A stretch of 64,000 nucleotides of DNA. It comes from Candidatus Krumholzibacteriia bacterium (GTDB lineage Bacteria > Krumholzibacteriota > Krumholzibacteriia > LZORAL124-64-63). A program made the position numbers and the translations under genes. The notes under the pieces were generated by a model that was not told the origin of the DNA, did no database searches, and worked only from the letters and a program-made list of their open reading frames with translations. How positions within the stretch are numbered: the first letter of the stretch is position 1; every line of letters begins with the position of its first letter. Positions 7,481 to 27,461 of this stretch are shown piece after piece. Location of the stretch: assembly GCA_035447065.1 (NCBI GenBank), contig DAOTGJ010000001.1:79694-143693 (forward strand), in the 5' to 3' direction.

Positions 7481-8434
7481 ATGTCCCGTTCCTGGCCCGA
7501 TTCCCGCCTGCAGGAGCTCTTCGGCTGTGCGCACCCCATCCTCCAGGCCGGCATGGTCCACAACAGCGGCGCGGATCTGGCCGCCGCCGCGGCCGAGGCC
7601 GGCTGCCTGGGTCTCATCGCCGCCGGCAGCTACCGGCCCGACGAGTTCCGCGCCCAGGTGCGGCGCGCCCGCGAGCTCACCGCCAAGCCGGTAGGCGTGA
7701 ACATCCCCCTCTTCTTCAAGTATGCGCGCGAGAGCCTGGAGACCGCCCTGGCCGAGGACGTGCCCGTGATCGTGACCTCGGCCGGTTCGCCCAGGCGCGC
7801 GGCCGGCCCCATCCTGGACGCTGGCCGGGCGTGGGTGCACGTGGCGGCCTCGCCGGCCCTGGCGGTCAAGTGCCAGGAAGCCGGATGCCACGCCGTGGTG
7901 GTGGAGGGGTTCGAGGCGGGCGGCCACAACGGGCGCGAGGAGCTGACCACCATGGTGCTCACGCCGGCGGCCGTGGCGGCCGTGGACATCCCGGTGATCG
8001 CGGCGGGCGGCATCGCCACCGGGGCGCAGATGGCGGCGGCCCTGGCGCTGGGCGCGGCGGGCGTGCAGATCGGCTCGCGCTTCGCGGTCACGCGCGAGTC
8101 GGCCGGGCACCAGGCCTTCAAGCAGGCCGTGGTGGACGGCGACGACACGCTGCTGGTCCTCAAGCAGCTCATGCCCGTGCGCCTTCTGGACAACGCGTTC
8201 CGCCGTCGCGTTCTGGAGGCGGAAGCATCCGGCGCCGCCAAGGAGGAGCTGGCCGCCCTGCTGGGCGAGGGCCGCGCGCGGCTGGGCATGGCCCAGGGCG
8301 ACGTGGACGAGGGCGAGCTGGAGATCGGCCAGGTGGCCGCGCTGATCCACGACATCCCTTCCGCGGCGGAGGTGGTGGCCGCCCTCCTGCGGGATTACGA
8401 CGCGGCCGTGGCCCGTCTGCGGGGCGGGCCGTGA
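7481..8434 (+). CDS. NAD(P)H-dependent FMN oxidoreductase of the nitronate monooxygenase / FabK-like family
   Basis: 317-aa ORF. Family blocks are HPILQAGMVHNSGADLAAAAAEAGCLGLIAAGS, VVVEGFEAGGHNG and IPVIAAGGIATGAQMAAALALGAAGVQIGSRF. Confidence 0.9.
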   Translation: MSRSWPDSRLQELFGCAHPILQAGMVHNSGADLAAAAAEAGCLGLIAAGSYRPDEFRAQVRRARELTAKPVGVNIPLFFKYARESLETALAEDVPVIVTSAGSPRRAAGPILDAGRAWVHVAASPALAVKCQEAGCHAVVVEGFEAGGHNGREELTTMVLTPAAVAAVDIPVIAAGGIATGAQMAAALALGAAGVQIGSRFAVTRESAGHQAFKQAVVDGDDTLLVLKQLMPVRLLDNAFRRRVLEAEASGAAKEELAALLGEGRARLGMAQGDVDEGELEIGQVAALIHDIPSAAEVVAALLRDYDAAVARLRGGP

Positions 8435-9612
8435 CCGCTGCCCCGCGCCTGGCCGCCCTCACGCTGCGGTCGCTGCTCCAGCCCCTGTGCGCCGCCCACC
8501 GCATCGACCTCTGCGGGGTGGTGGACCTCCCGCGCCGCCTGCCCCATACCGCCGATTGGCTCAACTGGCTGCTCAAGGGCCACCACGCGGATCTGGAGTA
8601 CCTGCTGCGCGACCCGCACGGCCGCGCCGATCCCAACCGCGTCCGCCCCTGGGCCCGCTCGCTCCTGGTCTTCGCCCAGCGCTATGCCAACGGCTGGTCG
8701 CCGGACGACGCCGAGGCCCGCGGCGGCTGCGCCGAGGGCCGCCCCTGGACCGCCGGCGTCTCCCGCTACGCCCGCGGCCGCGACTACCACGACGTTCTGC
8801 GCGGCTCCATCCGCAGCATCGTCCAGAGCCTGCGCACGGAGCTGCACGCGCGAGGCGTGCTGGCCGCGGAGTCCGACCTCCAGAGCACCGACGCCGTGGA
8901 CGCCGGCCCCTACCTGGAACGCGAGTACGCCTGGCTCGCCGGCCTGGGCTTCTACGGCAAGAACACCCTGCTCATCCACCCCAAGCTGGGCTCCGGCCTG
9001 TTCCTCGGCGTGGCGCTGACCAGCCTGGAGATCACCGGCGTGGCCGATGCGCCGCGGCCCCTGGTAGGCCCCGCCGCCCAGAGGCTGCCTCAGGACGGCA
9101 TGACCTCCCTCTGCGGCAAGTGCACCCGCTGCCTGGACGCCTGCCCCACCGAGGCCTTCCGCGACGCGTGGGAGCTGGACGCCGGCGCCTGCCTGAGCAC
9201 CTGGAGCATCGAGTGGCGCGGCGGCGCGCCGGAGCGGCGGCGCGCCGAGCAGGGCGGCCTGCTCTTCGGCTGCGACGTGTGCCAGGCCGTATGCCCCTGG
9301 AACCACAAGGCGGCGCGCAAGCTGCTGGATCCGCCGCCGCCGGACTACGCGGAGCTGCCGGAGCACGCGGAGCTGGACCTGGCCGAACTGATCGCCCTGG
9401 ACGCCGACGCGTTCCGCGCCCGCTTCCGCCGCACCCCCCTCTGGCGCGCCCATCCCGAAGGCGTGCGCCGCAACGCCCTGATCGTGGCGGCCAACACCGG
9501 CCGCCGCGACCTGCTGCCCGCCGCCCGCCACGCGGCGGAACAGGATCCGAACCCGGAGGTCCGCGCCGTGGCGGCGTGGGCCGTCGCCCGACTCGAGGGA
9601 GGATCGCCATGA
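8431..9612 (+). CDS. queG: Epoxyqueuosine reductase
   Basis: This is the C-terminal part of the 7831..9612 ORF. The GTG start at 8431 overlaps the upstream stop (GTGA). Motifs are GRDYHDV, LAGLGFYGKNTLLIHP, the ferredoxin-type CGKCTRCLDACPT and CDVCQAVCPWN, and a HEAT-like tail DPNPEVRAVAAWA. Confidence 0.9.
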   Translation: MTAAPRLAALTLRSLLQPLCAAHRIDLCGVVDLPRRLPHTADWLNWLLKGHHADLEYLLRDPHGRADPNRVRPWARSLLVFAQRYANGWSPDDAEARGGCAEGRPWTAGVSRYARGRDYHDVLRGSIRSIVQSLRTELHARGVLAAESDLQSTDAVDAGPYLEREYAWLAGLGFYGKNTLLIHPKLGSGLFLGVALTSLEITGVADAPRPLVGPAAQRLPQDGMTSLCGKCTRCLDACPTEAFRDAWELDAGACLSTWSIEWRGGAPERRRAEQGGLLFGCDVCQAVCPWNHKAARKLLDPPPPDYAELPEHAELDLAELIALDADAFRARFRRTPLWRAHPEGVRRNALIVAANTGRRDLLPAARHAAEQDPNPEVRAVAAWAVARLEGGSP

Positions 9613-10610
9613 CCATCGCCCCGGCCGCCGCCTGGTGGACCGCCCTGGAAGACGACCACGTCCGCTGCGACCTCTGCCCCCTGCGCTGCCGCCTGCGCCC
9701 CGGCCGCGACGCTCCCTGCGGCACCCGCGCCAACCGCGGCGGCGCCATGACGCCGCTGGAATACGGCCGCGTGGCGGCGGTGGGCCTGGATCCCGTGGAG
9801 AAGAAGCCGCTGTACCACTTCCGACCCGGTTCGGCCGTGTTCTCCGTGGCCGCCCACGGCTGCAACCTGCACTGCGCCTTCTGCCAGAACTGGACGCTGA
9901 GCCAGGAGCGCGGGGGCCAGGCCACCGAGACCACGCCGGAGGCCGTCGTGGCCGACGCCCGCCGCCACGACACCCGCGCCCTGGCCTTCACCTACAGCGA
10001 GCCCCTGGTCTGGTTCGAGTTCCTGCGCGACACCGCCCGCCTCGCCCGCGCCGAGGGCCTGGCCGTGCTCGCCGTGACCAACGGCTTCCTGGAGCCCGGC
10101 CCCCTGGCGGAACTGGCTCCCTGGCTCGACGCCGTCAACGTGGACCTCAAGAGCATGGACGACCGCTTCTACCGCCGCGTCTGCAAGGCCCGCCTGCAGC
10201 CTGTCCTGGACGCCATCACGGCGCTCCACGCCGCCGGCGTGCACGTGGAGGTCACCAACCTGCTCATCCCGGACCACAACGACGACCCCGCCCAGGTGGA
10301 CGCCCTGGCCTCATTCCTGGCCGACCTGGATCCCGGTCTGCCCCTGCACCTCTCCGCCTACCATCCGGCCTGGAAGCTGGACGCCCGCCCCACCACGGCG
10401 GACGATCTCCTGGCCGCCGCCGCGGTGGCCCGCCGCCGCCTGGACCACGTGTACCTGGGGAACGTGCGCCTGCCAGGGGAGAGCGATACGCGCTGCCCGC
10501 GCTGCGGCCACACAGTGATCTGGCGCGACGGCTACGCCGTCCGTTCCAGCATGACCGCGGCGGGCGCCTGCCTGCGCTGCGGGCGCGCCATCGGGGGCGT
10601 CTGGGAATAG
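9609..10610 (+). CDS. AmmeMemoRadiSam-system-type radical SAM enzyme (PFL-activase-like)
   Basis: This is the C-terminal part of the 8487..10610 ORF. The ATG at 9609 overlaps the queG stop (ATGA). Motifs are VRCDLCPLRCRL, DPVEKKPLYHFRPGS, the radical-SAM CNLHCAFCQNW, and a C-terminal CPRCG...CLRCG ribbon. Confidence 0.85.
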   Translation: MTIAPAAAWWTALEDDHVRCDLCPLRCRLRPGRDAPCGTRANRGGAMTPLEYGRVAAVGLDPVEKKPLYHFRPGSAVFSVAAHGCNLHCAFCQNWTLSQERGGQATETTPEAVVADARRHDTRALAFTYSEPLVWFEFLRDTARLARAEGLAVLAVTNGFLEPGPLAELAPWLDAVNVDLKSMDDRFYRRVCKARLQPVLDAITALHAAGVHVEVTNLLIPDHNDDPAQVDALASFLADLDPGLPLHLSAYHPAWKLDARPTTADDLLAAAAVARRRLDHVYLGNVRLPGESDTRCPRCGHTVIWRDGYAVRSSMTAAGACLRCGRAIGGVWE

Positions 10611-10702: not shown

Positions 10703-13516
10703 GTGCGCCGCTGGCCCATCTACCTCTGCTTCCTCTGCTCCGGCGCCGCGGGCCTCATCGACGAGGTGGTGTGGATCCGCAAGGCGTCGCTGGTCTTCGG
10801 CTCCACCACCTTCGCGGTCAGCACGGTGCTGGCCGTCTTCTTCGGCGGTCTGGCCCTGGGCAGCGAGCTGGCCGGCCGGTTCATGGACCGCGTGCGGCGG
10901 CCGCTGCGCACGTACGCCCGACTGGAGCTGCTGCTCGCGGCCCTGGCGCTGCTGAGCCTGCCCGCCTTCGGCTGGCTCGACGCGCCCTACGGCGCCCTCT
11001 ACCGCGCCCTGGGCGGCGGCGAAGGCGCGGGCGATCCCGTCCTGCTCCTCCTCTCGCGCCTGCTGCTCACGGCCCTGGTGCTGCTGCCGCCGGCCACGGC
11101 CATGGGCGCCACCCTGCCGCTCTTCGTGCGGCGTTTCGTGAGCGGCGACGCCGACCTGTCCGCGCGCGTGGGCTTCCTCTACGGGTTGAACACCCTGGGC
11201 GCGGCGGCGGGCACGCTGGCGGCCGGGTTCGTGCTGCTGCCCGCGCTGGGCATGCAGGGGAGCATCGCCGTGGCGGCGGCGCTCAACGTGGTCGCCGGCG
11301 GACTGGCCCTGGGGCTGGCGCGCGGGGAGGACGCGGCGCCGGCGCCGGTCGGTCCGGCCGCCGCGACGGCCGCGCCGCTCGGAGGTCGCGCCTGGGTGGT
11401 GGCCTCGCTCTTCCTGCTCACCGGCCTCGCCGCCCTGGCCGCGGAGGTGGTCTGGACCCGCTTCCTCTCCCTGCTGGTGCGCAACTCGGTCACCACCTAC
11501 ACGCTGGCCCTGGCGGTGGTGCTCGTGGGCATCGTGATCGGGAGCTGGCTCGCGGCGCGGCTGTGGGACCGGCGCCTGCCCCTGGCGGCGGTCTTCGCCG
11601 GCCTGCAGGCCGGCGCGGGGCTGATCCTCCTGGGCGTCACCCATCTGCCGCCGTCGTTCTGGCAGGGGCTGGGCGAAGGCGTGGCGCCCTTCGCGCTGCT
11701 CATGCTGCCGCCGGCGGTGCTTTCGGGCGCGTCGTTTCCGCTGGCGGTCAAGCTGGCGTCGCGCGACGGCGGCGACGCGGCGCGCACCGTGGGCAGGCTG
11801 GCTGCCCTGAACACCGTGGGAGGCATCCTGGGCTCGCTGGCGGCGGGGTTCTGGCTGCTGCCGCGGCTGGGCATGGCGGTCTCGCTGCAGGCGGTGACGG
11901 GGCTCTCGGTGCTGGCGGCCGTGCTGGCGCTGCTGCTGCTGGACCGTCCCACGGGCGGCGCGGCGCGACTGCGGCGCCTGGCGGTTGCGGCGCTGGCGGC
12001 GGCGACGTGGGCGCTCCTGCCGCGGATGCTGCCGGCGAGCCTGCCCGACGACTACCTGCGAGGCTCCGGCTCCCTGCTGGCCGTTCGCGAAGGCTACGGC
12101 GCCACCTTGTCCGTGGTGCGCCGCGAAGGCGATCGCGTCCTGCTCATCGATCGCCTGTGGCAGGGCCGCGACCGCAAGAACCACCAGATCATGGCGGCCC
12201 ACGTGCCGGCGCTGCTGCATCCGTCGCCGCGGCGGGTGCTGGTCATCGGCCTGGGAGTGGGGCAGACCGCCGGCCGCTTCCTGCTGCACGATCCCGAGCG
12301 CGTGGACTGCGTGGACATCGAGCCCACGCTGTTCCCCTTCGTGCGCGAGAACTTCGCCTCGGCCTGGATGGACGATCCCCGCGTGCACGCCATCCCCGAC
12401 GACGGCCGCACCTACACCGCGCACACGGACCGCACCTACGACCTGATCTCCATCGAGGTGGGCCAGGTCTTCCGTCCCGGCGTGGACGCCTTCTACACCC
12501 GCCGCTTCTACCGCGACGCCCGCGCGCGCCTGGCCCCCGGCGGACTCGCGGCCCAGTTCGTGCCGCTGCCGTTCCTGGACGAGACCATGCTGCGCCGCAT
12601 CACGGCCACCTTCCTGGAGGCCTTCCCGCAGGCGGTGCTCTGGTACAACGGCAACGAGCTGATCCTGATCGGCGCGGCCGACGGTCCCGTGACCCCGGAC
12701 CCGCAGCGTCTGGCCGCCGTGACCCGCGACCCGCGCCTGCGCGCCGACCTGGCCTGGACCCACTGGGGCGGCCGCGGCGAGCACCTGAACGATCCCGCCA
12801 ATCTCCTGGCCGGCCTCCTCTGCGACACCGACGGCCTGCGCCGCCTGGCCGCCGACGCCGCCCCTCTGGTGGACGACCGCCCGGACCTGGCCTACGCCAG
12901 CCGCACCATGCGCACCGCAGCCACGCCGGAGCTGGCGCTCACGGATCTGCTGGAAGGCCTGCTCGCGCCGCTGCCGGAGATCCTGGCGCCGGACGACCTG
13001 GTGCGCGCCCGGGACCTGCGCCGCGGCAACCTGGCGGACCTGCGCGCCACCGCCGTGCTGCGCGACGTACGCGCGCGCATGGCGGCGGCGGGCTTCCAGA
13101 GCACCCTGGCCGGCGCGCAACGCGCCCTGGCCCTGCACCCGGAGAACCGGCACGCCCAGCGCATGCTGGGCGACGTGCTGAACCTGGCAGGCCGCTTCCA
13201 GGACGCCGAACCCTGGTTCCGCCGCGTGCTGGAACGCGCCCCGGACGATCCCGAGGCCCGACGCGGCCTCGCCCTCTGCCTGAGCCGCACCGGCCGCCTG
13301 GAGGAGGCCATGACCGTCCTGCGCCGCCTGCTGGCCGACAGCCCCGACGACGCCGTGGCCCACAACTACCTGGGCGCCTGCCTGGCGGACCGCGGACGCC
13401 TGCCCGAGGCCGCCGAGCATTTCCGGCGCGCCGCCGCGCTGGACCCCGCCGACCGCGGGATCCAGGACAATCTGGAACGGGTGGAAAGGGATCTGCGCCG
13501 CTACCAGGGACGGTAG
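10703..13516 (+). CDS. Fused polytopic membrane / spermidine-synthase-like methyltransferase-fold / TPR protein
   Basis: This is the C-terminal part of the 9635..13516 ORF. The GTG at 10703 is the first plausible start before the first TM segment ([23 protein letters not shown]). There are about 8 TM segments, then [17 protein letters not shown]...YDLISIE (SAM-fold), then TPR-like repeats at the C-terminus. Confidence 0.85.
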
Positions 13517-13896
13517 CCGCCGCCCGCCTCGCCGGACCAGCCCGCGGCCCGATGGCTCACGCGCACGAAGGTGGTGATCCCCCCGCGCACGTACCATTTG
13601 GCGTCGATCTCCAGGAACCGCGGCTCCAGGAGCCTCACGAGGTCGCCCAGGATCTCGTTGGTCACCTTCTCATGGAAGGCGCCCTGGTCGCGGAAGGTCC
13701 ACAGGTACAGCTTGAGCGACTTGAGCTCCACGCACCGCGCGTCCGGCACGTAGCGGATGCGGAAGTGCGCGAAGTCCGGCTGCCCCGTCAACGGACACAG
13801 GCAGGTGAACTCGGGGCAGTCGAACAGGATCTCGTAGTCCCGCTCCGGCGCGGGGTTCTCGAAGGCCTCCATGGCCCGAGAAGGCTGACTCGGCAT
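13501..13896 (-). CDS. queF: NADPH-dependent 7-cyano-7-deazaguanine (preQ0) reductase, type I
   Basis: 131-aa ORF. It has the catalytic-Cys block [14 protein letters not shown] and the QueF motif [22 protein letters not shown] lies upstream of the ATG. Confidence 0.95.
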
Positions 13897-13965
13897 CGCT
13901 TCCTCCCTGCAGAATCTCAGCGATCAAACCTACCCCCGCCCCCCGGCAAGGGCAACCATGAACGA

Positions 13966-13991
13966 GGCCCCGGGCCGAATGGCCCGGGGCC
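13966..13991 (-). terminator. Second hairpin between the subtilase and queF (11-bp stem)
   Basis: GGCCCCGGGCC (13966-13976) / GGCCCGGGGCC (13981-13991) with loop GAAT. On the minus strand it follows the 25-bp hairpin and lies 70 nt upstream of the queF start. Confidence 0.5.
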
Positions 13992-14014
13992 GACGTTCCA
14001 AGATCACCGTCGTG

Positions 14015-14084
14015 GCGTGCGTCATGCGGCGCACGAGCGACGTTTCCGGTCAAGTTCGGCGCTCGTGCGCCGCATGACGCACGC
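14015..14084 (-). terminator. Very long perfect hairpin (25-bp stem, 20-nt loop) just after the subtilase stop
   Basis: GCGTGCGTCATGCGGCGCACGAGCG (14015-14039) is the exact reverse complement of 14060-14084. It lies 5 nt after the TAG at 14090-14092 on the minus strand. There is no clear U-tract. Confidence 0.6.
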
Positions 14085-14089
14085 TCCGT

Positions 14090-17206
<3,117 letters not shown>

Positions 17207-17269
17207 GGCCGTGCCTTCCTCCCGAAGAACTGGGGCCTGGGAATCATCGAAGCGGAAAAATTGCCACAC

Positions 17270-17281
17270 TATCATATGATA
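17270..17281. promoter_or_regulatory. Perfect 12-bp palindrome TATCATATGATA in the divergent subtilase / glycosyltransferase intergenic region
   Basis: Read directly from the sequence, in the AT-richest patch of the region, next to TTGCCA (17261-17266). It may be an operator or part of a promoter. No factor can be assigned. Confidence 0.25.
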
Positions 17282-17416
17282 TCAGAAACGGTCAGGCCCC
17301 TCAAGCGCGGCGGGTCCGCGGGCGGGGGCCGCCGAGGCAACGCTCGCAATCCGAGCGACTTGCCGCTAGAGTCCCCGAACCCGCGCCACGGATCGGAACC
17401 CCAGGAGAGGGCGACA

Positions 17417-18517
17417 GTGAGAATCCTGTTCATCGAGCCCTACGACGGCGGCTCCCACCGCGCCTTCCGCGAGAGCCTCACCGCGCGCAGCGCCCACGCG
17501 ATCACGTCGCTCACCCTGCCCGCCCGCTTCTGGAAGTGGCGCATGCGCTCGGCCGCCGTCTGGTTCGGCGACCGCATCCGCGAGGAGTCGCTCGGCGCGG
17601 ACCTCATCCTCTGCTCCGACTACCTCAACGTGGCGGACCTGCGCGGCCTGCTGCCGCCGCCCCTGGACCGCGCGCCCGTGGTCCAGTACATGCACGAGAA
17701 CCAGCTCACCTACCCGCTGTCGCCGGACGAGTCCTTCGACTACCACTTCGGCTTCACCAACATCCTGAGCTGCCTGGCCGCCGACCGCACCGTGTTCAAC
17801 TCCGCCTTCCACCGCGACCTCTTCCTGGGGGCCGTGGACGGCTTCCTGGGCCGCATGCCCGAGGCCGTGCCCCGGGACGTGCGCGACCGCATCGCCGCGC
17901 GCAGCACCGTGCTGCCGGTGGGCATCGACCGCGCCCCGCGCCCGCCCCAGGCGCCGGATCCCGTGCTCGGCCGCCGCGCCGGCCCGCCGGTCATCCTCTG
18001 GAACCACCGCTGGGAGTTCGACAAGCGGCCGGAATGGTTCGCGTCGTCGCTGATGGATCTGGCCGACGAGGGGCTGGAGTTCCGCGTGCGCCTGCTGGGG
18101 GAGGAGCGGCAGCGGGACGAGGTCTTCGGCCCGCTGCGCGACCGTCTGGGCGACCGCGTGCTGGACTACGGCCACCGCGACGACCGCGCCGATTACGAAG
18201 CCGCCCTGGCCGCGTCGCACGTGGTGGTGAGCTGCGCGGCCCAGGAGTACTTCGGCATCAGCGTGGCCGAGGCCATCCACGCGGGCTGCCACGCGGTGCT
18301 GCCGCGGGAGCAGGTCTACCCGTCGCTCTACGGCGACCGCTGCCCCGGCGACCACTTCTACGACGGTCCCGACGGGCTCACCGCCCTCCTGCGCCGCGTG
18401 GTCCGCGGCGAGGCCGCCCACGTCTGTTCCCTGCCGGCCCGCTGCGACGCCTTCTGCTGGGAGCGCCTGGCCCCGCGCTACGACGCCCTGTTCACCGCCC
18501 TGGCGGAAGGCGTCTGA
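17417..18517 (+). CDS. DUF3524 + GT1-family glycosyltransferase, homologue of eukaryotic GTDC1 (tRNA-queuosine alpha-mannosyltransferase)
   Basis: This is the C-terminal part of the 14207..18517 ORF. The GTG at 17417 follows CAGGAGAGGG. Blocks that I recall as conserved with human GTDC1 are ILFIEPYDGGSH, LPARFWKWRMRS, YMHENQLTYP, NILSCLAADRTVFNS, WNHRWEFDKRPE, FRVRLLGE and EYFGISVAEAIHAGC. Confidence 0.85.
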   Translation: MRILFIEPYDGGSHRAFRESLTARSAHAITSLTLPARFWKWRMRSAAVWFGDRIREESLGADLILCSDYLNVADLRGLLPPPLDRAPVVQYMHENQLTYPLSPDESFDYHFGFTNILSCLAADRTVFNSAFHRDLFLGAVDGFLGRMPEAVPRDVRDRIAARSTVLPVGIDRAPRPPQAPDPVLGRRAGPPVILWNHRWEFDKRPEWFASSLMDLADEGLEFRVRLLGEERQRDEVFGPLRDRLGDRVLDYGHRDDRADYEAALAASHVVVSCAAQEYFGISVAEAIHAGCHAVLPREQVYPSLYGDRCPGDHFYDGPDGLTALLRRVVRGEAAHVCSLPARCDAFCWERLAPRYDALFTALAEGV

Positions 18518-18518
18518 G

Positions 18519-19337
18519 ATGGCCGCGCGCACGTACCGGGCCTACCTGGTGGACGTGGAGGGCGTGCTGGTCCGCGACAAGGCCTACGCCCCTGTGGCGG
18601 GCTCCCCGGAGTGGTTCGCCGGCCTGGCCGCCCGCGGGCTGCGGCGCGTGCTGGTCAGCAACAACACCACCCACACGCCGGCCGAGCAGGCGGCCGCGCT
18701 GGCCGCGGCCGGCTACGGCGTCACGGCGGACGACGTGGTGGGAGTCCTGGACGTGGCCGTCTCCCTCCTGCGCGGCTGGGGCAAGACCCGGCTGCTCTGG
18801 CTGGGACACCCCCGCCTCCGGCCGTGGTGGGAGTCCGCCGGCTTCAGCCTGGCGGACGGCGGCCCCTGCGACGCCGTGGTCCTGGGCGCCAACCCCCACC
18901 TGGACCTGGCGGACCTGGACCGCGCCCTGCCCGCCCTGCTGGACCAGGGCGCGGAGCTGGTGGCCCTGCACCGCAACCTCTTCTGGCTCGACGAGGCCGG
19001 CCGCCGCCGCCTGGGGCCCGGCTGCCATGTGGAATCCCTGGCGCCGCTGGCCCGCCGCGACCCAGTGATCGTGGGCAAGCCGCGGGAGCGGATCTACCGC
19101 GAGGCCCTGAAAAGGCTTGGCGTGGACGCCGCGGACGCTCTATTTATCTCGGATGATCCGGTGGCCGACCTGGTCACCGCCAAACGCCTGGGCATGGGCA
19201 CGGCCTTCGTCCTCAGCGGCAAGCATCCCGACCACGCCGTTCTGGAGCGTCTGGACCAGGAGGACTGGCCCGACGTCATCGCCGACCGACCCTGCGACCT
19301 CGATCCGGTCGCGCCCGCCGAGCCCCCCGAGGAGTGA
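18519..19337 (+). CDS. HAD-superfamily subfamily IIA hydrolase (NagD-like phosphatase)
   Basis: 272-aa ORF that starts 1 nt after the upstream stop. HAD motifs: I is LVDVEGVL (DxE rather than DxD), II is LVSNNTT, III is VGKP, and IV is FISDDPVADL. Confidence 0.85.
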   Translation: MAARTYRAYLVDVEGVLVRDKAYAPVAGSPEWFAGLAARGLRRVLVSNNTTHTPAEQAAALAAAGYGVTADDVVGVLDVAVSLLRGWGKTRLLWLGHPRLRPWWESAGFSLADGGPCDAVVLGANPHLDLADLDRALPALLDQGAELVALHRNLFWLDEAGRRRLGPGCHVESLAPLARRDPVIVGKPRERIYREALKRLGVDAADALFISDDPVADLVTAKRLGMGTAFVLSGKHPDHAVLERLDQEDWPDVIADRPCDLDPVAPAEPPEE

Positions 19338-19340
19338 TCC

Positions 19341-20201
19341 GTGTCCGACCGCAAGCCCGCCGCCAATCCCGACGACGCCCGCACCCAGCAGCTCTGCCTC
19401 ACCGCGTGGGAGCTGGCCGCCAGCCGCGGCGACGAGACCCTGTCGCCCCAGGCCGCCGGCATCATGATGCGCGCCGAGGAGCGGCTCCAAGCGGAGCTGG
19501 AACGCCTGGACGGCGTGGACCAGGGCCAGCGCTCCCAGATCCGCGTGCGGGCCGACGCCGAGGCCGCCGTGCTGCTGATCCACGGCTCCACGGGCAACCC
19601 GGGCGATCTGAAGGCCCTGGCGGACCACCTCTACGAGCGCGGCTTCACCATCGCCAACATCCTGCTGCCGGGGCATGGCCGTGAGACCGCCTCGCCGCCG
19701 GAGGCCCGCTGGAAGACCTGCCTGCACGAGTCGCGCCTGCGCTACGCGGCCCTGGCCCGGGCCTACCGGCAGGTGCATGTGGTGGGCTTCAGCTTCGGCG
19801 CCGCCCTGGCGCTGCACCTGGCCGTGGAGGAACGCCCCCGCTCCCTGACCCTGCTGGCGCCGGCCCTGAATCCCCGCGTGCCGTTCCAGACCCGGCTCAT
19901 GCTGCTGCTGGGCCTGCACCGGCTGCCCTTCCTGCGCCGCCGCCTGGGCTGGAACCTGGAGGTCTTCGACGCCATGGAGGGCGCCAAGCCCCTGGTGTCC
20001 AAGCTGGACCTGCCCATCTACGCGGCCCATTGCGAGGACGACCCCCGCATCGACCCCTCGTCCCTGCGCCACCTCCAGAAGCGCTCCCGCCACCGGAACT
20101 CCCGCTTCCGGCTGTTCCCCACGGGCGGGCACATGATCCTGGAGGCCCACGGCCGCGACTCCCTGCACCGGGAGATCGCCGAATTCCTCACCCGGCGCTG
20201 A
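19341..20201 (+). CDS. Alpha/beta-fold hydrolase (esterase/lipase-like)
   Basis: 286-aa ORF with a GTG start 3 nt after the HAD stop. Motifs are LLIHGSTGNPGD, the nucleophile elbow GFSFGA, and C-terminal GGHMI (His). Confidence 0.85.
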   Translation: MSDRKPAANPDDARTQQLCLTAWELAASRGDETLSPQAAGIMMRAEERLQAELERLDGVDQGQRSQIRVRADAEAAVLLIHGSTGNPGDLKALADHLYERGFTIANILLPGHGRETASPPEARWKTCLHESRLRYAALARAYRQVHVVGFSFGAALALHLAVEERPRSLTLLAPALNPRVPFQTRLMLLLGLHRLPFLRRRLGWNLEVFDAMEGAKPLVSKLDLPIYAAHCEDDPRIDPSSLRHLQKRSRHRNSRFRLFPTGGHMILEAHGRDSLHREIAEFLTRR

Positions 20202-20358
20202 CCGCGCCGCGTCCCTCGCTGCCCGCTTGCGGTTTGCACGCCCGCCGTGTGCCTCGCACGGCCCGAGGCGGGCGTGCGCCATTCCATGACGTCCCATGAT
20301 GTCTCGAAACACCCTGGCGGGCAGGCTTTGCGGCTGCGCCGACCCGGATTTGCACTTG

Positions 20359-20374
20359 GGGCATGGGAGTTGCA
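20359..20374 (+). promoter_or_regulatory. Candidate sigma54 (-24/-12) promoter upstream of the HTH / STAS-GAF pair
   Basis: GGGCAT-GGGAG-TTGCA compared with the consensus TGGCAC-N5-TTGCW. The GG and GC elements sit at the correct 12-nt register. It lies about 57 nt upstream of the ATG at 20431. Three further TTGCA-like motifs are in the same 230-bp spacer. Confidence 0.3.
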
Positions 20375-20430
20375 GTCGGGGCCGGTGACATCACCGGGCA
20401 TTGCAACACCGACTCCGGGAGCGACACACC

Positions 20431-20652
20431 ATGAGCACGGACACCAAGGAATTCGGCGCCATCTACATCGGGGCCGAGGAGACCGTCACCCAGGTCATGA
20501 CGTCGGTCGAGGCCGCCGAGTACCTCAAGATGCACGTCAAGACCGTCTGCCGTCTGGCCAAGGAAGGCAAGATCCCCGCGAAGAAGGTCGGCAGCGAGTG
20601 GCGCTTCCTGCGCCGCGTGCTGGACGGCTGGCTGGCCAAGGAGCTCGTCTGA
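20431..20652 (+). CDS. Small helix-turn-helix DNA-binding protein (excisionase/MerR-like HTH)
   Basis: ORF 20401..20652; I prefer the ATG at 20431. The sequence TSVEAAEYLKMHVKTVCRLAKEGKIPAKKVGSEWRF is typical of the excisionase-family HTH. Confidence 0.8.
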   Translation: MSTDTKEFGAIYIGAEETVTQVMTSVEAAEYLKMHVKTVCRLAKEGKIPAKKVGSEWRFLRRVLDGWLAKELV

Positions 20653-20654
20653 CC

Positions 20655-21569
20655 ATGGACTTCGGGCTGGAGGTCCGGGAGCTGGACCCGCCCCACTCGG
20701 TGGCGGTGGCCTGCTTCGGCGTGAGCGGGCATGGCGACGTGGCGCGGCTCGAGGCCGTCGCCACGGATCCGACCGTGCGCGCCGCGCGCCGCGTGGTCCT
20801 GGACCTGCGCCGGCTCGGCTCCGCCAGTCCGTACCTGGTCCGGGCCATGGTGGCCTGGCAACGTTCCCTGCTGGACCGGGGCGCCAGCCTCGTGGTCCTG
20901 GGGGCCAACAGCGTGATCCGCTGGCGGCTGGCCCGGGCCCGAGGCGAGCTGCCGTTGCCGGAGGCCGAGGGCCTGGACGCGGCCCGCAATCTTCCTCTGG
21001 ATTCCCTGCAGCACGTGGAGGTGGGCGGACGCCGGGAACGGGATCCCGTGGAGCACGCTCCGCGGCCCCTCCAGGGTCTGTCCCGGAACCTCGACGCCGC
21101 CGGCGCCGGACTCGCCGCCGCCGCCCTGTCGGTCCTGCAGCAGGCGGGCCTGGCGGAGCGGGCGGTCGTGGTGCCGGTGCGCGACGGCCGCCTCCAGGGT
21201 CCGAGCCATCTTGATGGCCCGGCGGAGACGGGCGACCTGGTGCGCCAGCTCGAAGCGGCCCGGGGGATCCTGGAGGTCGAGCACGTGGACCGCGAGTCCT
21301 GCGGGCTCGCGGAGCTGGCGTTGCTGCATCGATGCGGCGCCGATCTGCTCGTCCCCGCGCGCGAGAGCGGGGCCCTGCACGGCCTGTTGGCGGTGCGCAG
21401 CGGCCGGGGCGGCCTGGCCTCCTACCGCAGCGGCGAGGTCCTGGCCCTGGAGCTCCTGGGGCTCTGGCTCGGGGGCCGGTTGGCCGAGACGGCCAAGGCG
21501 CCTGCGGACGTGCCGGCCTGGGAGCTGGAGGAGATCCCTCTGGATGCTGTGCCGCTGGAAGCGGTCTGA
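20655..21569 (+). CDS. STAS-like plus GAF-like two-domain protein (hypothetical regulator)
   Basis: This is the C-terminal part of ORF 20247..21569. The ATG at 20655 is 2 nt after the HTH stop. The N-terminus is STAS-like (VVLDLRRLGSASPYLVRAMV...LVVLGAN). The C-terminus is GAF-like (LLVPARESGALHGLLAVRS...EVLALELLG). Confidence 0.65.
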   Translation: MDFGLEVRELDPPHSVAVACFGVSGHGDVARLEAVATDPTVRAARRVVLDLRRLGSASPYLVRAMVAWQRSLLDRGASLVVLGANSVIRWRLARARGELPLPEAEGLDAARNLPLDSLQHVEVGGRRERDPVEHAPRPLQGLSRNLDAAGAGLAAAALSVLQQAGLAERAVVVPVRDGRLQGPSHLDGPAETGDLVRQLEAARGILEVEHVDRESCGLAELALLHRCGADLLVPARESGALHGLLAVRSGRGGLASYRSGEVLALELLGLWLGGRLAETAKAPADVPAWELEEIPLDAVPLEAV

Positions 21570-21613
21570 TCCGACCGTCGACGTTCCCGCAACTCCTTGC
21601 CGATGGACCAGTT

Positions 21614-21641
21614 GAAGCGCCGCCCGCAGGGGCGGCGCTTC
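21614..21641 (+). terminator. Hairpin terminator after the STAS-GAF gene
   Basis: Perfect 12-bp stem GAAGCGCCGCCC / GGGCGGCGCTTC with loop GCAG, 45 nt after the stop. The T-tract is weak (GCGTTACCC). Confidence 0.55.
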
Positions 21642-21894
21642 GCGTTACCCGACGCCCTCTCCGCCTCGCCGCCGACGTCGCGCCCCCGCCGCCGTCGCAA
21701 CCAGCCACCTCAGGCCAGGTTAGCTTTCGGCTCGACCCCGCGCGTCCGCTGGCCGCCGACTTGCAGTCCGGCCGCGGGGGCGACGAGGAGGAGAACGGGA
21801 GGCTCCGCCGTGTCGCAGGGTCCCGTCGGTCGGTGCAAGGGCGCCTCACTGCTCCGGCCGACGGCCCACCCCGAGTCTCGTCCAAGGAGCAGCC

Positions 21895-25966: not shown

Positions 25967-27367
25967 TCAATCGGCGTCCGGACGGGCGTCGGCATCCCGA
26001 AAACCAACGGTCAGTGTAACGGCCTCATCCGTGTGCGGCAACCACCGGGTGCGCTCGTCGCGGGCCAGTCCCACCAGCCAGAGCGGACCGTCGTCGTCCT
26101 CGACCAGCAGGACGTCGCCGCGGCGGTCCCGCGGCACGCGGGCCTCCCGCAGAAGGTCGCTCACCTTCTTGGTCCCGTCCAGTCCGATCGGCCGCAGCCT
26201 GTCTCCCGGCCGCCAGGGCCGCAGGCGAGCCCGGCCGCGCAGGGCGGCGGCGGGCAGGGCCAGGCGCCAGCGGTCGTCGGGCGGGGCCAGGCCGGCCTCG
26301 GGTGCGCACGGGTCCAGGTCCGCGGGCACGCCGGGGGCGGTGTGGAGCCGCGGCCGTGGCCGCGGCGCGACGGTCGCATCCCCGCGTACGATCCGCAGCA
26401 GGTCCTGCGAGCGCACCGCGCGCCAGCCGGCGCCCAGCTCCAGGGCGGTGCCGGCCCCGGACCCGGGCAGCCACGCCGCCAGGGCGGTCAGCCGCTCCTC
26501 CGTCAGCGGGGAGGGGCCCGGCTCCCGCTCCGCCACGATGCGGCGGACCACGCGGAGCAGCAGCGCCGGCGGCAGGTGCGCGGCGATGGGCCAGGGCAGG
26601 GCGTCGGTAGGCAGGCCGCGGCGGTCCCAGGCGCGCCGCCGGGCCGCGGCCAGGCGGTCCAGGGCCGCGGCGTCGCGGGCGGCGATGGCGGCGGTGCGGG
26701 CCGGGCCCGCCAGGGCGGAAGGGCCGAAGATCTCCCGCAGCACGGGCACCAGGTCGCGGCGGAGGCGGGCGCGCAGATTGGCGTCGCCCACGTTCGTGGC
26801 GTCGATGCGCCAGGGCTGGTCCAGGGTCGTCAGGACCGCTTCCACCTCCGCCCGGGTCCAGCGGAGCAGCGGACGCACCCAGGAGCCCCGGCGCGGCGCC
26901 ATGGCGCGCAGGCCGTCGGGGCCCGTGCCGCGGAAGAGGCGCAGCAGCACGGTCTCGGCCTGGTCGTCGGCGTGGTGGCCCAGGGCCACGGCGGCGAGCG
27001 GGGGCCGATCCGCCAGCACGCGGCGCAGGAAGGCGTGGCGGGCGTCGCGCAGGGCGGCCTCGCCCGGAGCGGCGCCGGGAGGCCAGGCCAGGGATTCGCG
27101 GTGCAGGGGGATGCCCAGCCGGGCGCAGAGGTCGGCGCAGAAGGCGGCGTCGGCGTCGGCGTCGGCGCCGCGCAGGCCGTGGTGGAGGTGGGCGGCCTCC
27201 ACCGGTCCGCCGCCGGAGTCGCGGCGGGCGGCCGCGGCGCGCAGGAGCAGCACGGAATCGGGACCGCCGGACAAGGCCACGAGAACCCCGGCGCCGGAAG
27301 GCAGCAGGCGATCCAGATCGACGACGGCACGGGTGAGGGACGCGGGGGAGGGAGGCATGACGGCCAC
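25967..27367 (-). CDS. tilS: tRNA(Ile)-lysidine synthase
   Basis: 466-aa ORF with a GTG start at 27367 (alternative ATG at 27358). It has the PP-loop SGGPDS, plus GHHADDQAETVLLRLFRG and WRIDATN. Confidence 0.9.
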   Translation of the reverse strand: MAVMPPSPASLTRAVVDLDRLLPSGAGVLVALSGGPDSVLLLRAAAARRDSGGGPVEAAHLHHGLRGADADADAAFCADLCARLGIPLHRESLAWPPGAAPGEAALRDARHAFLRRVLADRPPLAAVALGHHADDQAETVLLRLFRGTGPDGLRAMAPRRGSWVRPLLRWTRAEVEAVLTTLDQPWRIDATNVGDANLRARLRRDLVPVLREIFGPSALAGPARTAAIAARDAAALDRLAAARRRAWDRRGLPTDALPWPIAAHLPPALLLRVVRRIVAEREPGPSPLTEERLTALAAWLPGSGAGTALELGAGWRAVRSQDLLRIVRGDATVAPRPRPRLHTAPGVPADLDPCAPEAGLAPPDDRWRLALPAAALRGRARLRPWRPGDRLRPIGLDGTKKVSDLLREARVPRDRRGDVLLVEDDDGPLWLVGLARDERTRWLPHTDEAVTLTVGFRDADARPDAD

Positions 27368-27384: not shown

Positions 27385-27461
27385 TGGTAGCGGCTCAGGG
27401 ATTCGAACCCCGGACACACGGATTATGATTCCGTTGCTCTAACCAACTGAGCTAAGCCGCC
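27385..27461 (-). tRNA. Elongator-type tRNA with anticodon CAU (Met, or Ile2 after lysidinylation)
   Basis: Reverse complement: GGCGGCT-TA-GCTC-AGTTGGTTA-GAGC-A-ACGGA-ATCATAA-TCCGT-GTGTC-CGGGG-TTCGAAT-CCCTG-AGCCGCT-A-CCA (77 nt, clean cloverleaf, encoded CCA). The 1:72 pair is G-U, not the initiator-type C-A mismatch, and there are no three G:C pairs at the base of the anticodon stem. Confidence 0.9.

What the first reader, a model, noticed from the sequence alone, without database searches (positions are those of the whole stretch)
17417..20201. Bacterial homologue of the vertebrate tRNA-queuosine mannosyltransferase (GTDC1/QTMAN, DUF3524+GT1) heads a 3-gene operon close to queF and queG
Seen in the sequence:
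- The 366-aa product of 17417..18517 carries ILFIEPYDGGSH, LPARFWKWRMRS, YMHENQLTYP, NILSCLAADRTVFNS, WNHRWEFDKRPE, FRVRLLGE and EYFGISVAEAIHAGC. I recall these blocks as collinear with human GTDC1.
- It is packed 1 nt and 3 nt from a HAD-IIA phosphatase and an alpha/beta hydrolase (GFSFG). The phosphatase motif I reads DVEG, not DxDG.
- queF lies 3.5 kb upstream and queG about 8 kb upstream.

Established knowledge: GTDC1 was identified as the enzyme that adds mannose to Q34 of tRNA-Asp. Glycosylated queuosines are regarded as a vertebrate feature. To my knowledge the bacterial DUF3524 glycosyltransferases have no assigned function.

Inference: this operon could encode a bacterial hypermodification of queuosine, with the phosphatase and hydrolase processing a sugar donor or intermediate.
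Basis: partly seen in the sequence, partly recalled or inferred. Interest (0 to 1): 0.7.

Follow-up and report, generated by a model that had tools for sequence, protein, structure and literature searches.

The report
Bacterial homologue of animal queuosine mannosyltransferase
This bacterium carries a clear full-length relative of the animal enzyme that attaches mannose to the tRNA base queuosine, so some bacteria may sugar-coat queuosine too, but no experiment has tested this and the two neighbouring genes are probably not part of a general pathway.

Summary
ORF 17417-18517 encodes a 366-aa protein. It matches Pfam QTMAN_N (formerly DUF3524) over the whole model (E 6e-60). It aligns end to end with human GTDC1/QTMAN (E 4e-43, about 34% identity outside a roughly 100-aa vertebrate insert). 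Fifty-five residues are invariant across 30 bacterial and 14 vertebrate sequences, split evenly between the acceptor-side and donor-side domains. The AlphaFold model is a retaining GT4-like GT-B fold. queF and queG are present, so the organism makes queuosine.

The most likely function is glycosylation of Q34 in tRNA (confidence about 0.6). This rests on homology only.

The operon interpretation is weak:
- The HAD and alpha/beta-hydrolase partners, and the queF/queG proximity, occur only in one Krumholzibacteriota-like lineage, where the whole 20-kb block is syntenic.
- About 100 loci from other phyla show no conserved partner and no queuosine genes.
- The hydrolase lacks its nucleophile Ser in 40 of 61 orthologues.
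- The HAD gene is missing in 11 of 59 loci.

Pfam and NCBI already record the homology. I found no paper on bacterial homologues or on glycosyl-Q in bacteria. Verdict: a new member of a known family, moderately interesting, and directly testable by tRNA LC-MS.

The parts
17417..18517 (+). Glycosyltransferase, bacterial member of the QTMAN/GTDC1 family (366 aa). It has a QTMAN_N acceptor-side domain (about residues 1-170) and a GT4-like donor-side domain with R198, K203 and an EX7E motif (E277...E285).
   Evidence: Pfam PF12038, E 6.3e-60, full model length. BLASTP to human GTDC1, E 4e-43, collinear. 55 columns invariant across bacteria and vertebrates. AF2 model with pLDDT 88.8; the best Foldseek matches are retaining GT-B enzymes.
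18519..19337 (+). HAD-IIA family protein (272 aa) starting 1 nt after the GT stop. Motif I is D-x-E-G rather than D-x-D-G. A lineage-specific partner; its link to the GT reaction is unproven.
   Evidence: TIGR01460 at 101 bits against a cutoff of 100. D12 and E14 are invariant in 53 of 53 orthologues. The nearest solved relatives are Pho2 pNPPase, HDHD2, NagD and LHPP. It is adjacent to the GT in 48 of 59 lineage loci. One fused GT-HAD ORF exists, P0362.
19341..20201 (+). Alpha/beta-hydrolase-fold protein (286 aa) starting 3 nt after the HAD stop. GFSFG is present here, but the Ser is not conserved in orthologues.
   Evidence: Pfam Hydrolase_4, Abhydrolase_1 and Abhydrolase_6. It follows the GT in 59 of 59 lineage loci. 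Position 151 is Ser in 20 of 61 and Gly in 40 of 61 orthologues, while C231, D233, D234, H264 and H270 are invariant. The nearest solved relatives are Est30 carboxylesterase and monoacylglycerol lipase.
13501..13896 (-). queF (preQ1 synthase). Context only: it shows the organism makes queuosine precursors. It is not co-transcribed with the GT.
   Evidence: TIGR03139, E 1.4e-50. It lies within 0.2-8.3 kb upstream of the GT in 36 of 40 lineage loci. It is absent near the GT in other phyla.
8431..9612 (+). queG (epoxyqueuosine reductase), in an overlapping NMO-queG-radical-SAM operon. Context only.
   Evidence: TIGR00276 at 214 bits against a cutoff of 200. Gene calls with 4-nt overlaps.

Best explanation
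**What it is.** The gene at 17417-18517 encodes a bacterial orthologue of the animal tRNA-queuosine alpha-mannosyltransferase (QTMAN/GTDC1).

**What is shown.** It is a soluble GT-B glycosyltransferase of the retaining, GT4-like type. The C-terminal domain carries the usual nucleotide-sugar binding residues (R198, K203, E277-x7-E285). The N-terminal QTMAN_N domain is found only in this family and carries the acceptor-side motifs GSH, WxWRxR, HENQxxYP and FNS.

**What is inferred.**
- It takes an NDP-hexose (GDP-mannose by analogy) and transfers the sugar, with retention, onto a hydroxyl of the cyclopentenediol ring of queuosine at position 34 of tRNA. tRNA-Asp is the most likely target.
- The product would be an alpha-hexosyl-queuosine, in a bacterium that makes Q de novo.
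- The downstream HAD (DxEG) and alpha/beta-hydrolase-fold genes are co-transcribed partners specific to one lineage. Their connection to this reaction, if any, is unknown. They are not general components of the system.
For: **Homology.** Full-length QTMAN_N match, 202 bits. Collinear alignment with human GTDC1, E 4e-43.

**Conserved residues.** 33-34% identity to 14 vertebrate sequences. 55 columns are invariant across 44 sequences.

**Acceptor side is as conserved as donor side.** Bacteria-to-vertebrate identity is 35% in the N-domain and 37% in the C-domain, with 27 invariant residues in each. Among bacteria the N-domain is the better conserved (70% against 64%). This is the opposite of what is expected if the acceptor had changed.

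**One tight family.** A Desulfobacterales member is 37% identical to human and 44% to the window protein. Vertebrate enzymes are therefore about as far from bacterial ones as bacterial phyla are from each other.

**Fold.** AF2 model pLDDT 88.8, pTM 0.87. The top Foldseek hits are retaining GT-B enzymes: GlgM, MshA, BshA, SPS and PimA.

**Substrate available.** queF and queG are in the window.

**Housekeeping-like behaviour.**
- GT identity across the lineage is 56-68%. That is similar to queF (62-81%) and above tilS (38-55%).
- In other phyla it is usually a lone gene with changing neighbours, as tRNA-modification genes often are. A polysaccharide-type neighbour (another GT4 plus methyltransferases) appears only in L090.
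- RNA-related neighbours appear sporadically: an RsmB/F methyltransferase 2 nt downstream in L087, and truA in L072.

**Spread.** At least 569 matches in GTDB species-representative genomes and 884 clusters at 50% identity with E <= 1e-30.
Against: - There is no experimental evidence for any bacterial member. I found no report of glycosyl-Q in bacteria. The literature states that sugar-Q occurs in vertebrates and gluQ in bacteria (PMC10690763).
- Outside one lineage there is no gene-neighbourhood link to queuosine genes.
- There is no preQ1 riboswitch upstream.
- Identity of about 34% does not guarantee the same acceptor, tRNA species or sugar.
- I could not test whole-genome co-occurrence with tgt, queA or gluQRS.
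- Isoelectric points (median 6.1) give no hint of nucleic-acid binding.
- The tight GT-HAD coupling in this lineage (1-nt gap, one fused ORF) is reminiscent of synthase/phosphatase pairs that act on small phosphorylated acceptors.
Confidence: 0.6

Rival explanations
1. The GT and the HAD form a synthase/phosphatase pair that makes a small-molecule glycoside. The GT would glycosylate a phosphorylated acceptor and the HAD would remove the phosphate. Models are sucrose-phosphate synthase with its phosphatase, and MshA in mycothiol synthesis. The similarity to QTMAN would then reflect shared ancestry, not a shared acceptor.
For: - The gap between the GT stop and the HAD start is 1 nt.
- A fused GT-HAD ORF exists, P0362.
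- The closest folds include MshA, BshA, SPS and GlgM, which use small, and in some cases phosphorylated, acceptors.
- The spirochaete loci have a PGM/PMM gene, and two of the three also a HAD_2 gene, next to the GT.
Against: - The HAD is missing in 11 of 59 lineage loci, and no homologue of this HAD lies next to the GT in the other phyla sampled.
- The N-terminal, acceptor-side domain is as conserved with vertebrate QTMAN as the donor domain, with 27 invariant residues.
- Structural relatives share at most 17% identity and lack the QTMAN_N motifs.
- The HAD has Glu at the general acid/base position. Its nearest solved relatives are generic pNPP, NagD and LHPP-type phosphatases.
Confidence: 0.15
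2. The protein is a QTMAN-family enzyme with a related but different nucleic-acid or 7-deazapurine acceptor. Candidates are a different Q-tRNA (Tyr, His, Asn), a Q precursor (oQ or preQ1 in tRNA), or free queuosine/queuine. It might also use a different sugar. The product would then not be manQ on tRNA-Asp.
For: - Identity to the characterised enzyme is only about 34%.
- Bacteria lack the roughly 100-aa vertebrate linker.
- In mosquito, manQ was mapped to tRNA-Tyr rather than only tRNA-Asp, so specificity varies even among animals (PMC11705514).
- A nucleoside phosphorylase-superfamily gene is the commonest neighbour in one Desulfobacterales-like clade, in 13 of about 50 loci.
Against: Nothing found here argues specifically for any alternative acceptor. 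The strong cross-kingdom conservation of the N-domain motifs argues for the same recognised chemical group.
Confidence: 0.15
3. It is an ordinary cell-envelope or exopolysaccharide glycosyltransferase, as the JGI label 'glycosyltransferase involved in cell wall biosynthesis' suggests.
For: - An automatic JGI annotation on many homologues.
- One locus (L090) has another GT4 and methyltransferases next to it.
- One locus (L085) has a weak Wzz hit nearby.
Against: - There is no polysaccharide gene cluster around it in the window or in most of the loci surveyed.
- Sequence conservation is unusually high for an envelope GT, at 64% mean column identity across the lineage.
- The specific N-domain is shared with a cytosolic animal tRNA enzyme.
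Confidence: 0.05

Closest known systems
Vertebrate/animal QTMAN (GTDC1), tRNA-queuosine alpha-mannosyltransferase
   Same: - The same two-domain architecture: QTMAN_N plus a GT1/GT4-type domain.
- Collinear over the full length, with 33-34% identity.
- 55 invariant residues, including GSH, WxWRxR, HENQxxYP, FNS, WxHRWExDKxP and EX7E.
   Different: - It lacks the roughly 100-aa vertebrate linker insert between the domains.
- It sits in a bacterium that synthesises Q de novo.
- It is co-transcribed with HAD and alpha/beta-hydrolase-fold genes.
- Its activity, sugar donor and tRNA target are untested.
GluQRS (YadB), the bacterial glutamyl-queuosine tRNA-Asp synthetase
   Same: GluQRS is the only known bacterial enzyme that decorates the cyclopentenediol of Q34. 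It acts on tRNA-Asp, and natural gluQ carries the glutamate on the allylic hydroxyl (PMC10690763). That is the same hydroxyl that carries mannose in manQ (abstract of PMC12518689). The two would therefore be functional analogues.
   Different: The fold and chemistry are unrelated. GluQRS is a class I aminoacyl-tRNA-synthetase paralogue that forms an ester, whereas this protein is a GT-B glycosyltransferase. I could not check whether the two are mutually exclusive in genomes.
Retaining GT4/GT5 GT-B enzymes (MshA, BshA, PimA, sucrose-phosphate synthase, GlgM)
   Same: The same overall fold. The same donor-side residues: an Arg/Lys pair and the EX7E motif. These are the best structural matches, with TM about 0.65-0.71.
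   Different: They share at most 17% identity and give no sequence-level hit in the PDB. Their N-domains lack the QTMAN_N motifs. Their acceptors are small molecules, lipids or glucans.
QTGAL (B3GNTL1), tRNA-queuosine galactosyltransferase
   Same: It also glycosylates Q34, on tRNA-Tyr, in animals (PMC12313893).
   Different: It belongs to an unrelated glycosyltransferase family and gives a beta-linked galactose on the other hydroxyl. No relative of it was seen here.

Membership tests
QTMAN/GTDC1 family (PF12038-containing glycosyltransferases) | Full-length QTMAN_N (ex-DUF3524) N-terminal domain scoring above the Pfam gathering threshold | tested here: met
   202.3 bits against a cutoff of 25, E 6.3e-60, model positions 1-168 of 168.
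QTMAN/GTDC1 family (PF12038-containing glycosyltransferases) | C-terminal GT-B donor domain of GT1/GT4 type with an EX7E motif and an Arg/Lys phosphate-binding pair | tested here: met
   The Glycos_transf_1 hit is 25.6 bits, just below the 26.4 cutoff. However, E277-x7-E285, R198 and K203 are invariant. The AF2 model matches retaining GT-B enzymes with probability 1.0.
QTMAN/GTDC1 family (PF12038-containing glycosyltransferases) | Collinear full-length similarity to the experimentally characterised vertebrate enzyme, and mutual recognition | tested here: met
   BLASTP residues 1-361 against 1-452, E 4e-43. Human GTDC1 hits all 398 bacterial family sequences held. Named homologues of the window protein are labelled DUF3524 or tRNA-queuosine alpha-mannosyltransferase domain proteins. 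A strict whole-proteome reciprocal best hit was not possible.
QTMAN/GTDC1 family (PF12038-containing glycosyltransferases) | Catalysis: transfer of mannose from GDP-mannose to Q34 of tRNA-Asp | not testable with these tools
   This needs an enzyme assay or tRNA LC-MS. The primary paper (Zhao et al. 2023, Cell) is not in the held library.
QTMAN/GTDC1 family (PF12038-containing glycosyltransferases) | The substrate (queuosine in tRNA) is present in the host | tested here: inconclusive
   queF and queG are in the window, but tgt, queA and queCDE are not within the 64 kb.
Queuosine-pathway gene cluster (functional linkage by genome context) | Conserved neighbourhood of the GT with que or tgt genes across unrelated lineages | tested here: not met
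   queF lies within 8.5 kb in 36 of 40 lineage loci. That is part of block synteny which also includes ftsH, folP and tilS. No queF or queG homologue lies near the GT in 10 distant GTDB loci or 80 Desulfobacterales-like metagenome loci. No queuosine-pathway Pfam family appears among the annotated neighbours there or in 8 further contigs.
HAD-IIA phosphatases (second gene) | Motif I DxDG, with the Asp+2 general acid/base | tested here: not met
   The motif is D12-V-E14-G. The Glu is invariant in 53 of 53 orthologues and aligns with DiDG of Pho2. Motifs II-IV are present, and TIGR01460 scores 101 against a cutoff of 100.
Serine alpha/beta hydrolases (third gene) | GxSxG nucleophile elbow conserved, with an acid and a His | tested here: inconclusive
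   The motif is met in the window (GFSFG, D233/D234, H264). The Ser is Gly in 40 of 61 orthologues.

The most novel reading that the evidence does not exclude
Many bacteria (Krumholzibacteriota-like lineages, Desulfobacterota, Spirochaetota, Planctomycetota, Bacteroidota) carry a hexosyl-queuosine in tRNA. This modification is currently described only for animals, and the animal enzyme descends from this bacterial family. In the window's lineage, the conserved GT, HAD(DxEG) and alpha/beta-fold module goes one step further and makes a processed derivative. For example, a sugar phosphate might be transferred and then trimmed, or an ester might be exchanged for a sugar on the same hydroxyl that GluQRS uses.

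I put the first part alone (bacterial glycosyl-Q) at about 0.55. The probability given here is for the full reading, including a role for the two partners.
Probability: 0.15. Interest if true: 0.8.

Novelty: new member of a known kind. Interest (0 to 1): 0.55.

Why it matters
Queuosine is made only by bacteria. Its sugar-decorated forms are described in the papers I read as an animal (mostly vertebrate) speciality, while bacteria are credited only with glutamyl-Q.

A widespread and strongly conserved bacterial orthologue of the mannosyltransferase would have three consequences:
- The glycosylation may have arisen in bacteria.
- It gives a compact 366-aa enzyme, without the vertebrate linker, for structural and mechanistic work on Q-tRNA recognition. 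No QTMAN structure is in the PDB copy searched here.
- It turns 'do bacteria glycosylate Q?' into a question that one heterologous-expression and LC-MS experiment can answer.

If the enzyme acts on something else, it would show that the QTMAN_N domain is not diagnostic of tRNA-Q glycosylation. That would correct the names now spreading through NCBI annotation.

Tried and rejected
**Searches that found nothing**
- Sequence search of the GT against the PDB: no hit at E <= 0.01. No QTMAN structure is available to map catalytic or tRNA-binding residues.
- Rfam over the whole window, plus a permissive scan of 13400-17500: only three tRNAs. There is no preQ1 riboswitch upstream of the GT or queF.
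- PADLOC: nothing for GT, HAD or ABH. Only the downstream HTH gives a weak mad1-like hit. The module does not match any known defence system in PADLOC.
- Phage genomes (tblastn): only partial hits to the C-terminal GT1 domain in jumbo phages. No QTMAN_N was found.
- Literature: 'DUF3524' appears in no paper. 'DUF2400' appears in one irrelevant paper. The primary Cell 2023 paper is not held. Two 2026 preprints on manQ do not discuss bacterial homologues.

**Analyses that were uninformative**
- Promoter and terminator scan of 17150-21700. There was one promoter-like site, on the opposite strand, and no terminators. Sigma-70 consensus scans are in any case of doubtful value for this lineage.
- Isoelectric point as a proxy for RNA binding. 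The bacterial median is 6.13 and the vertebrate median 7.23.
- A search for fusion partners. The only informative one was a GT-HAD fused ORF (P0362). The N-terminal extensions of P0438 and P0475 have no Pfam domain.
- Neighbour surveys looking for que or tgt genes near distant homologues. All were negative.

**Limit**
- The window holds no tgt, queA or queCDE. Whole-genome co-occurrence could not be done because only about 20-kb loci can be fetched.


Full report
**1. Observation**

The ORF at 17417-18517 starts with GTG behind a GGAGAGG stretch and encodes 366 aa.

Pfam places residues 2-170 in PF12038, now named 'tRNA-queuosine alpha-mannosyltransferase N-terminal' (QTMAN_N, the former DUF3524). 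The match is E 6.3e-60 and 202 bits against a cutoff of 25, over the whole model. The C-terminal half gives a borderline Glycos_transf_1 match.

The next ORF starts 1 nt after the stop and is a HAD-IIA protein. The third starts 3 nt after that and is an alpha/beta-hydrolase-fold protein. queF (13501-13896, minus strand) and queG (8431-9612) are confirmed at equivalog level. Independent gene calls on the public contig agree (GCA_964529345.1, CAZGWA010000001.1).

**2. Relationship to the animal enzyme**

I queried the protein collection with the human GTDC1 sequence as I recalled it. It returned a 458-aa cluster listed at 100% identity and coverage (P0121). Primate proteins 96% identical to it are named tRNA-queuosine alpha-mannosyltransferase. 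I used the database sequence from then on.

- BLASTP of the window protein against P0121 aligns 1-361 with 1-452 at E 4e-43. The only large difference is a roughly 100-residue insert between the two domains of the vertebrate protein.
- In an alignment of 30 bacterial and 14 vertebrate sequences, identity to the window protein is 32-34% for the vertebrates. Fifty-five columns are invariant.
- The invariant positions split 27 and 27 between the N-terminal (acceptor-side) and C-terminal (donor-side) domains.
- Bacteria-to-vertebrate identity is 35% in the N-domain and 37% in the C-domain. Among bacteria the N-domain is the better conserved, at 70% against 64%.
- A Desulfobacterales homologue is 37% identical to human and 44% to the window protein. 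Vertebrate enzymes are therefore about as far from bacterial ones as bacterial phyla are from each other. This is one tight family.

**3. Fold and mechanism**

AlphaFold2 on that alignment gives a confident model (pLDDT 88.8, pTM 0.87). Foldseek against the PDB returns only retaining GT-B enzymes of the GT4/GT5 type: GlgM, MshA, BshA, SenB, sucrose-phosphate synthase and PimA. Identity is at most 17%. A sequence search of the PDB finds nothing, so no QTMAN structure is available.

The invariant R198, K203 and E277-x7-E285 correspond to the nucleotide-sugar binding pattern known from GT4 enzymes such as PimA and MshA. That correspondence rests on established knowledge of GT4 enzymes. A retaining mechanism fits the alpha-linked mannose of manQ.

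**4. Distribution**

The metagenome scan confirmed 576, also at its limit. A full HMMER pass over 1.84 billion representatives finds 884 clusters at 50% identity with E <= 1e-30.

Named members come from Krumholzibacteriia, Gemmatimonadales, Tectomicrobia, Nitrospinota, Desulfobacterales, Syntrophobacterales, Spirochaetales, Brocadiaceae and Chitinophagales/Bacteroidota MAGs. NCBI already names some 'tRNA-queuosine alpha-mannosyltransferase domain-containing protein'. JGI calls them 'glycosyltransferase involved in cell wall biosynthesis'.

**5. Genome context within the lineage**

I compared 70 Krumholzibacteriota-like loci, with GT identity of 56-68%. The whole block is syntenic: NMO-queG-radical SAM-(spermine-synthase/TPR), then queF and an S8 peptidase on the opposite strand, then GT-HAD-ABH-HTH, and further on the diadenylate cyclase gene (DAC/CdaA_N), folP, ftsH and tilS.

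- The alpha/beta-fold gene follows the GT in 59 of 59 loci that extend far enough. The HAD follows in 48 of 59.
- queF is within 8.5 kb upstream in 36 of 40 loci and queG in 33 of 40.
- In L011 and L069 the peptidase is missing, and queF is then a divergent neighbour about 195 bp from the GT.

Unrelated housekeeping genes keep their places just as well. The queF/queG proximity is therefore only weak evidence of a functional link.

**6. Genome context outside the lineage**

- Ten distant GTDB loci, with 39-49% identity.
- Eight long contigs from other clades, with precomputed Pfam annotation.
- Eighty Desulfobacterales-like metagenome loci.

Together they show no conserved partner. tblastn with the window proteins finds no queF, queG, this HAD or this alpha/beta-fold gene next to the GT. 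No queuosine-pathway family appears among the neighbours annotated with Pfam.

The neighbours change from locus to locus. They include IMPDH, an Rce1-like protease, an ABC/FtsX/lipocalin set, a DUF362 Fe-S protein, UvrD, aroB, Rho and DnaJ. Some are RNA-related: an RsmB/F-type methyltransferase 2 nt downstream in L087, and a convergent truA in L072. In the three spirochaete loci a PGM/PMM gene lies beside the GT, with a HAD_2 gene as well in two of them. The commonest neighbour in the Desulfobacterales-like set is a PNP_UDP_1 superfamily gene, in 13 of about 50 loci.

A lone, well-conserved gene with shifting neighbours is what many tRNA-modification genes look like. It is unlike envelope glycosyltransferases. 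But it gives no positive link to queuosine.

**7. The two partners**

*The HAD.* It has D12-x-E14-G in place of DxDG, and the Glu is invariant in 53 of 53 orthologues. The substitution is therefore a fixed feature of this subfamily and not decay. Motifs II-IV are intact. Its nearest solved relatives are generic HAD-IIA enzymes: Pho2 pNPPase, HDHD2, NagD, LHPP and PDXP. One database ORF (P0362) fuses the GT and the HAD.

*The alpha/beta-fold protein.* It has GFSFG in the window. The Ser is present in only 20 of 61 orthologues and is Gly in 40, while C231, D233, D234, H264 and H270 are invariant. In most of the lineage it cannot be a classical serine hydrolase. It may be a non-catalytic partner or use other chemistry.

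Neither finding excludes a lineage-specific role.

**8. Other checks**

- There is no Rfam family other than three tRNAs in the window, and no preQ1 riboswitch.
- There is no PADLOC hit for the three proteins.
- There are no phage homologues of the N-domain.
- There are no further queuosine genes within the 64 kb.
- Isoelectric points are uninformative.

**9. Literature**

The held library has no paper containing 'DUF3524'. I found none that discusses bacterial QTMAN homologues.

- PMC10690763 states that sugar-modified Q derivatives are found in vertebrates and that gluQ is known only in bacteria. It also shows that natural gluQ is the alpha-allyl ester.
- The abstract of PMC12518689 places the mannose of manQ on the allylic 3-hydroxyl. 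The bacterial glutamyl group and the animal mannosyl group therefore occupy the same position.
- PMC11705514 reports manQ and QTMAN orthologues in Diptera, so the modification is not strictly vertebrate.
- The primary identification of GTDC1 as QTMAN (Zhao et al. 2023, Cell) is cited through these papers. It could not be read here.

**10. Verdict**

The gene is a true bacterial member of the QTMAN family. Membership is met for every feature that sequence and structure can test.

The best-supported function is glycosylation of Q34 in tRNA, at about 0.6. It rests on homology, on equal conservation of the acceptor-side domain, and on the presence of Q biosynthesis genes.

The 'three-gene queuosine operon' reading is only partly supported. 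The partners and the que-gene proximity are confined to one lineage with general synteny. The hydrolase has usually lost its nucleophile.

Pfam and NCBI naming already record the homology, so this is a new member of a known kind. What would be new is the biological implication, glycosylated queuosine in bacteria. That is directly testable.

Noticed in passing
window 19341-20201 and orthologues in L001-L071: The alpha/beta-hydrolase-fold gene that always follows the GT has its nucleophile Ser (GFSFG) only in the window's subclade, in 20 of 61 orthologues. It is Gly in 40 of 61. Meanwhile C231, D233, D234, H264 and H270 are invariant. It is likely a pseudo-hydrolase or uses non-classical chemistry.
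   Followed up: partly
window 18519-19337: This HAD-IIA subfamily has a fixed Glu at the Asp+2 general acid/base position (D-x-E-G), invariant in 53 of 53 orthologues. One public ORF (P0362, 589 aa) fuses it to the GT.
   Followed up: partly
window 27385-27461 (-) and 25967-27367 (-): A tRNA with anticodon CAT, followed by a T8 run, lies 18 nt upstream of tilS on the same strand. It could be tRNA-Ile2, the substrate of TilS, rather than tRNA-Met.
   Followed up: no
window 7481-10610: The nitronate-monooxygenase-like gene, queG and a radical-SAM gene overlap by 4 nt each, forming one operon. This order is conserved across the lineage.
   Followed up: no
L087 7001-8903; L072 11085-11846; L077 2594-3403: In other phyla the GT homologue is sometimes tightly coupled to other genes. 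These are an RsmB/F-type RNA methyltransferase (2-nt gap), a convergent truA, and an overlapping DUF2400 gene of unknown function.
   Followed up: partly
L093-L172 (e.g. L123 6140-6925): In a Desulfobacterales-like clade the most frequent neighbour of the GT is a PNP_UDP_1 (nucleoside phosphorylase/nucleosidase superfamily) gene on the same strand. It occurs in 13 of about 50 loci with enough flank.
   Followed up: partly
window 20431-21569: An excisionase-type HTH_17 gene (73 aa, weak mad1-like hit) is followed after 2 nt by a 304-aa protein with no Pfam or PADLOC match. Both are conserved downstream of the GT module in many loci of the lineage (the 304-aa gene in fewer).
   Followed up: partly
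window 14090-17206 (-): A large S8 peptidase with beta-helix, FlgD-Ig and Por secretion-tail (T9SS) domains sits between queF and the GT. It is absent in L011 and L069, which brings queF and the GT into divergent contact.
   Followed up: no
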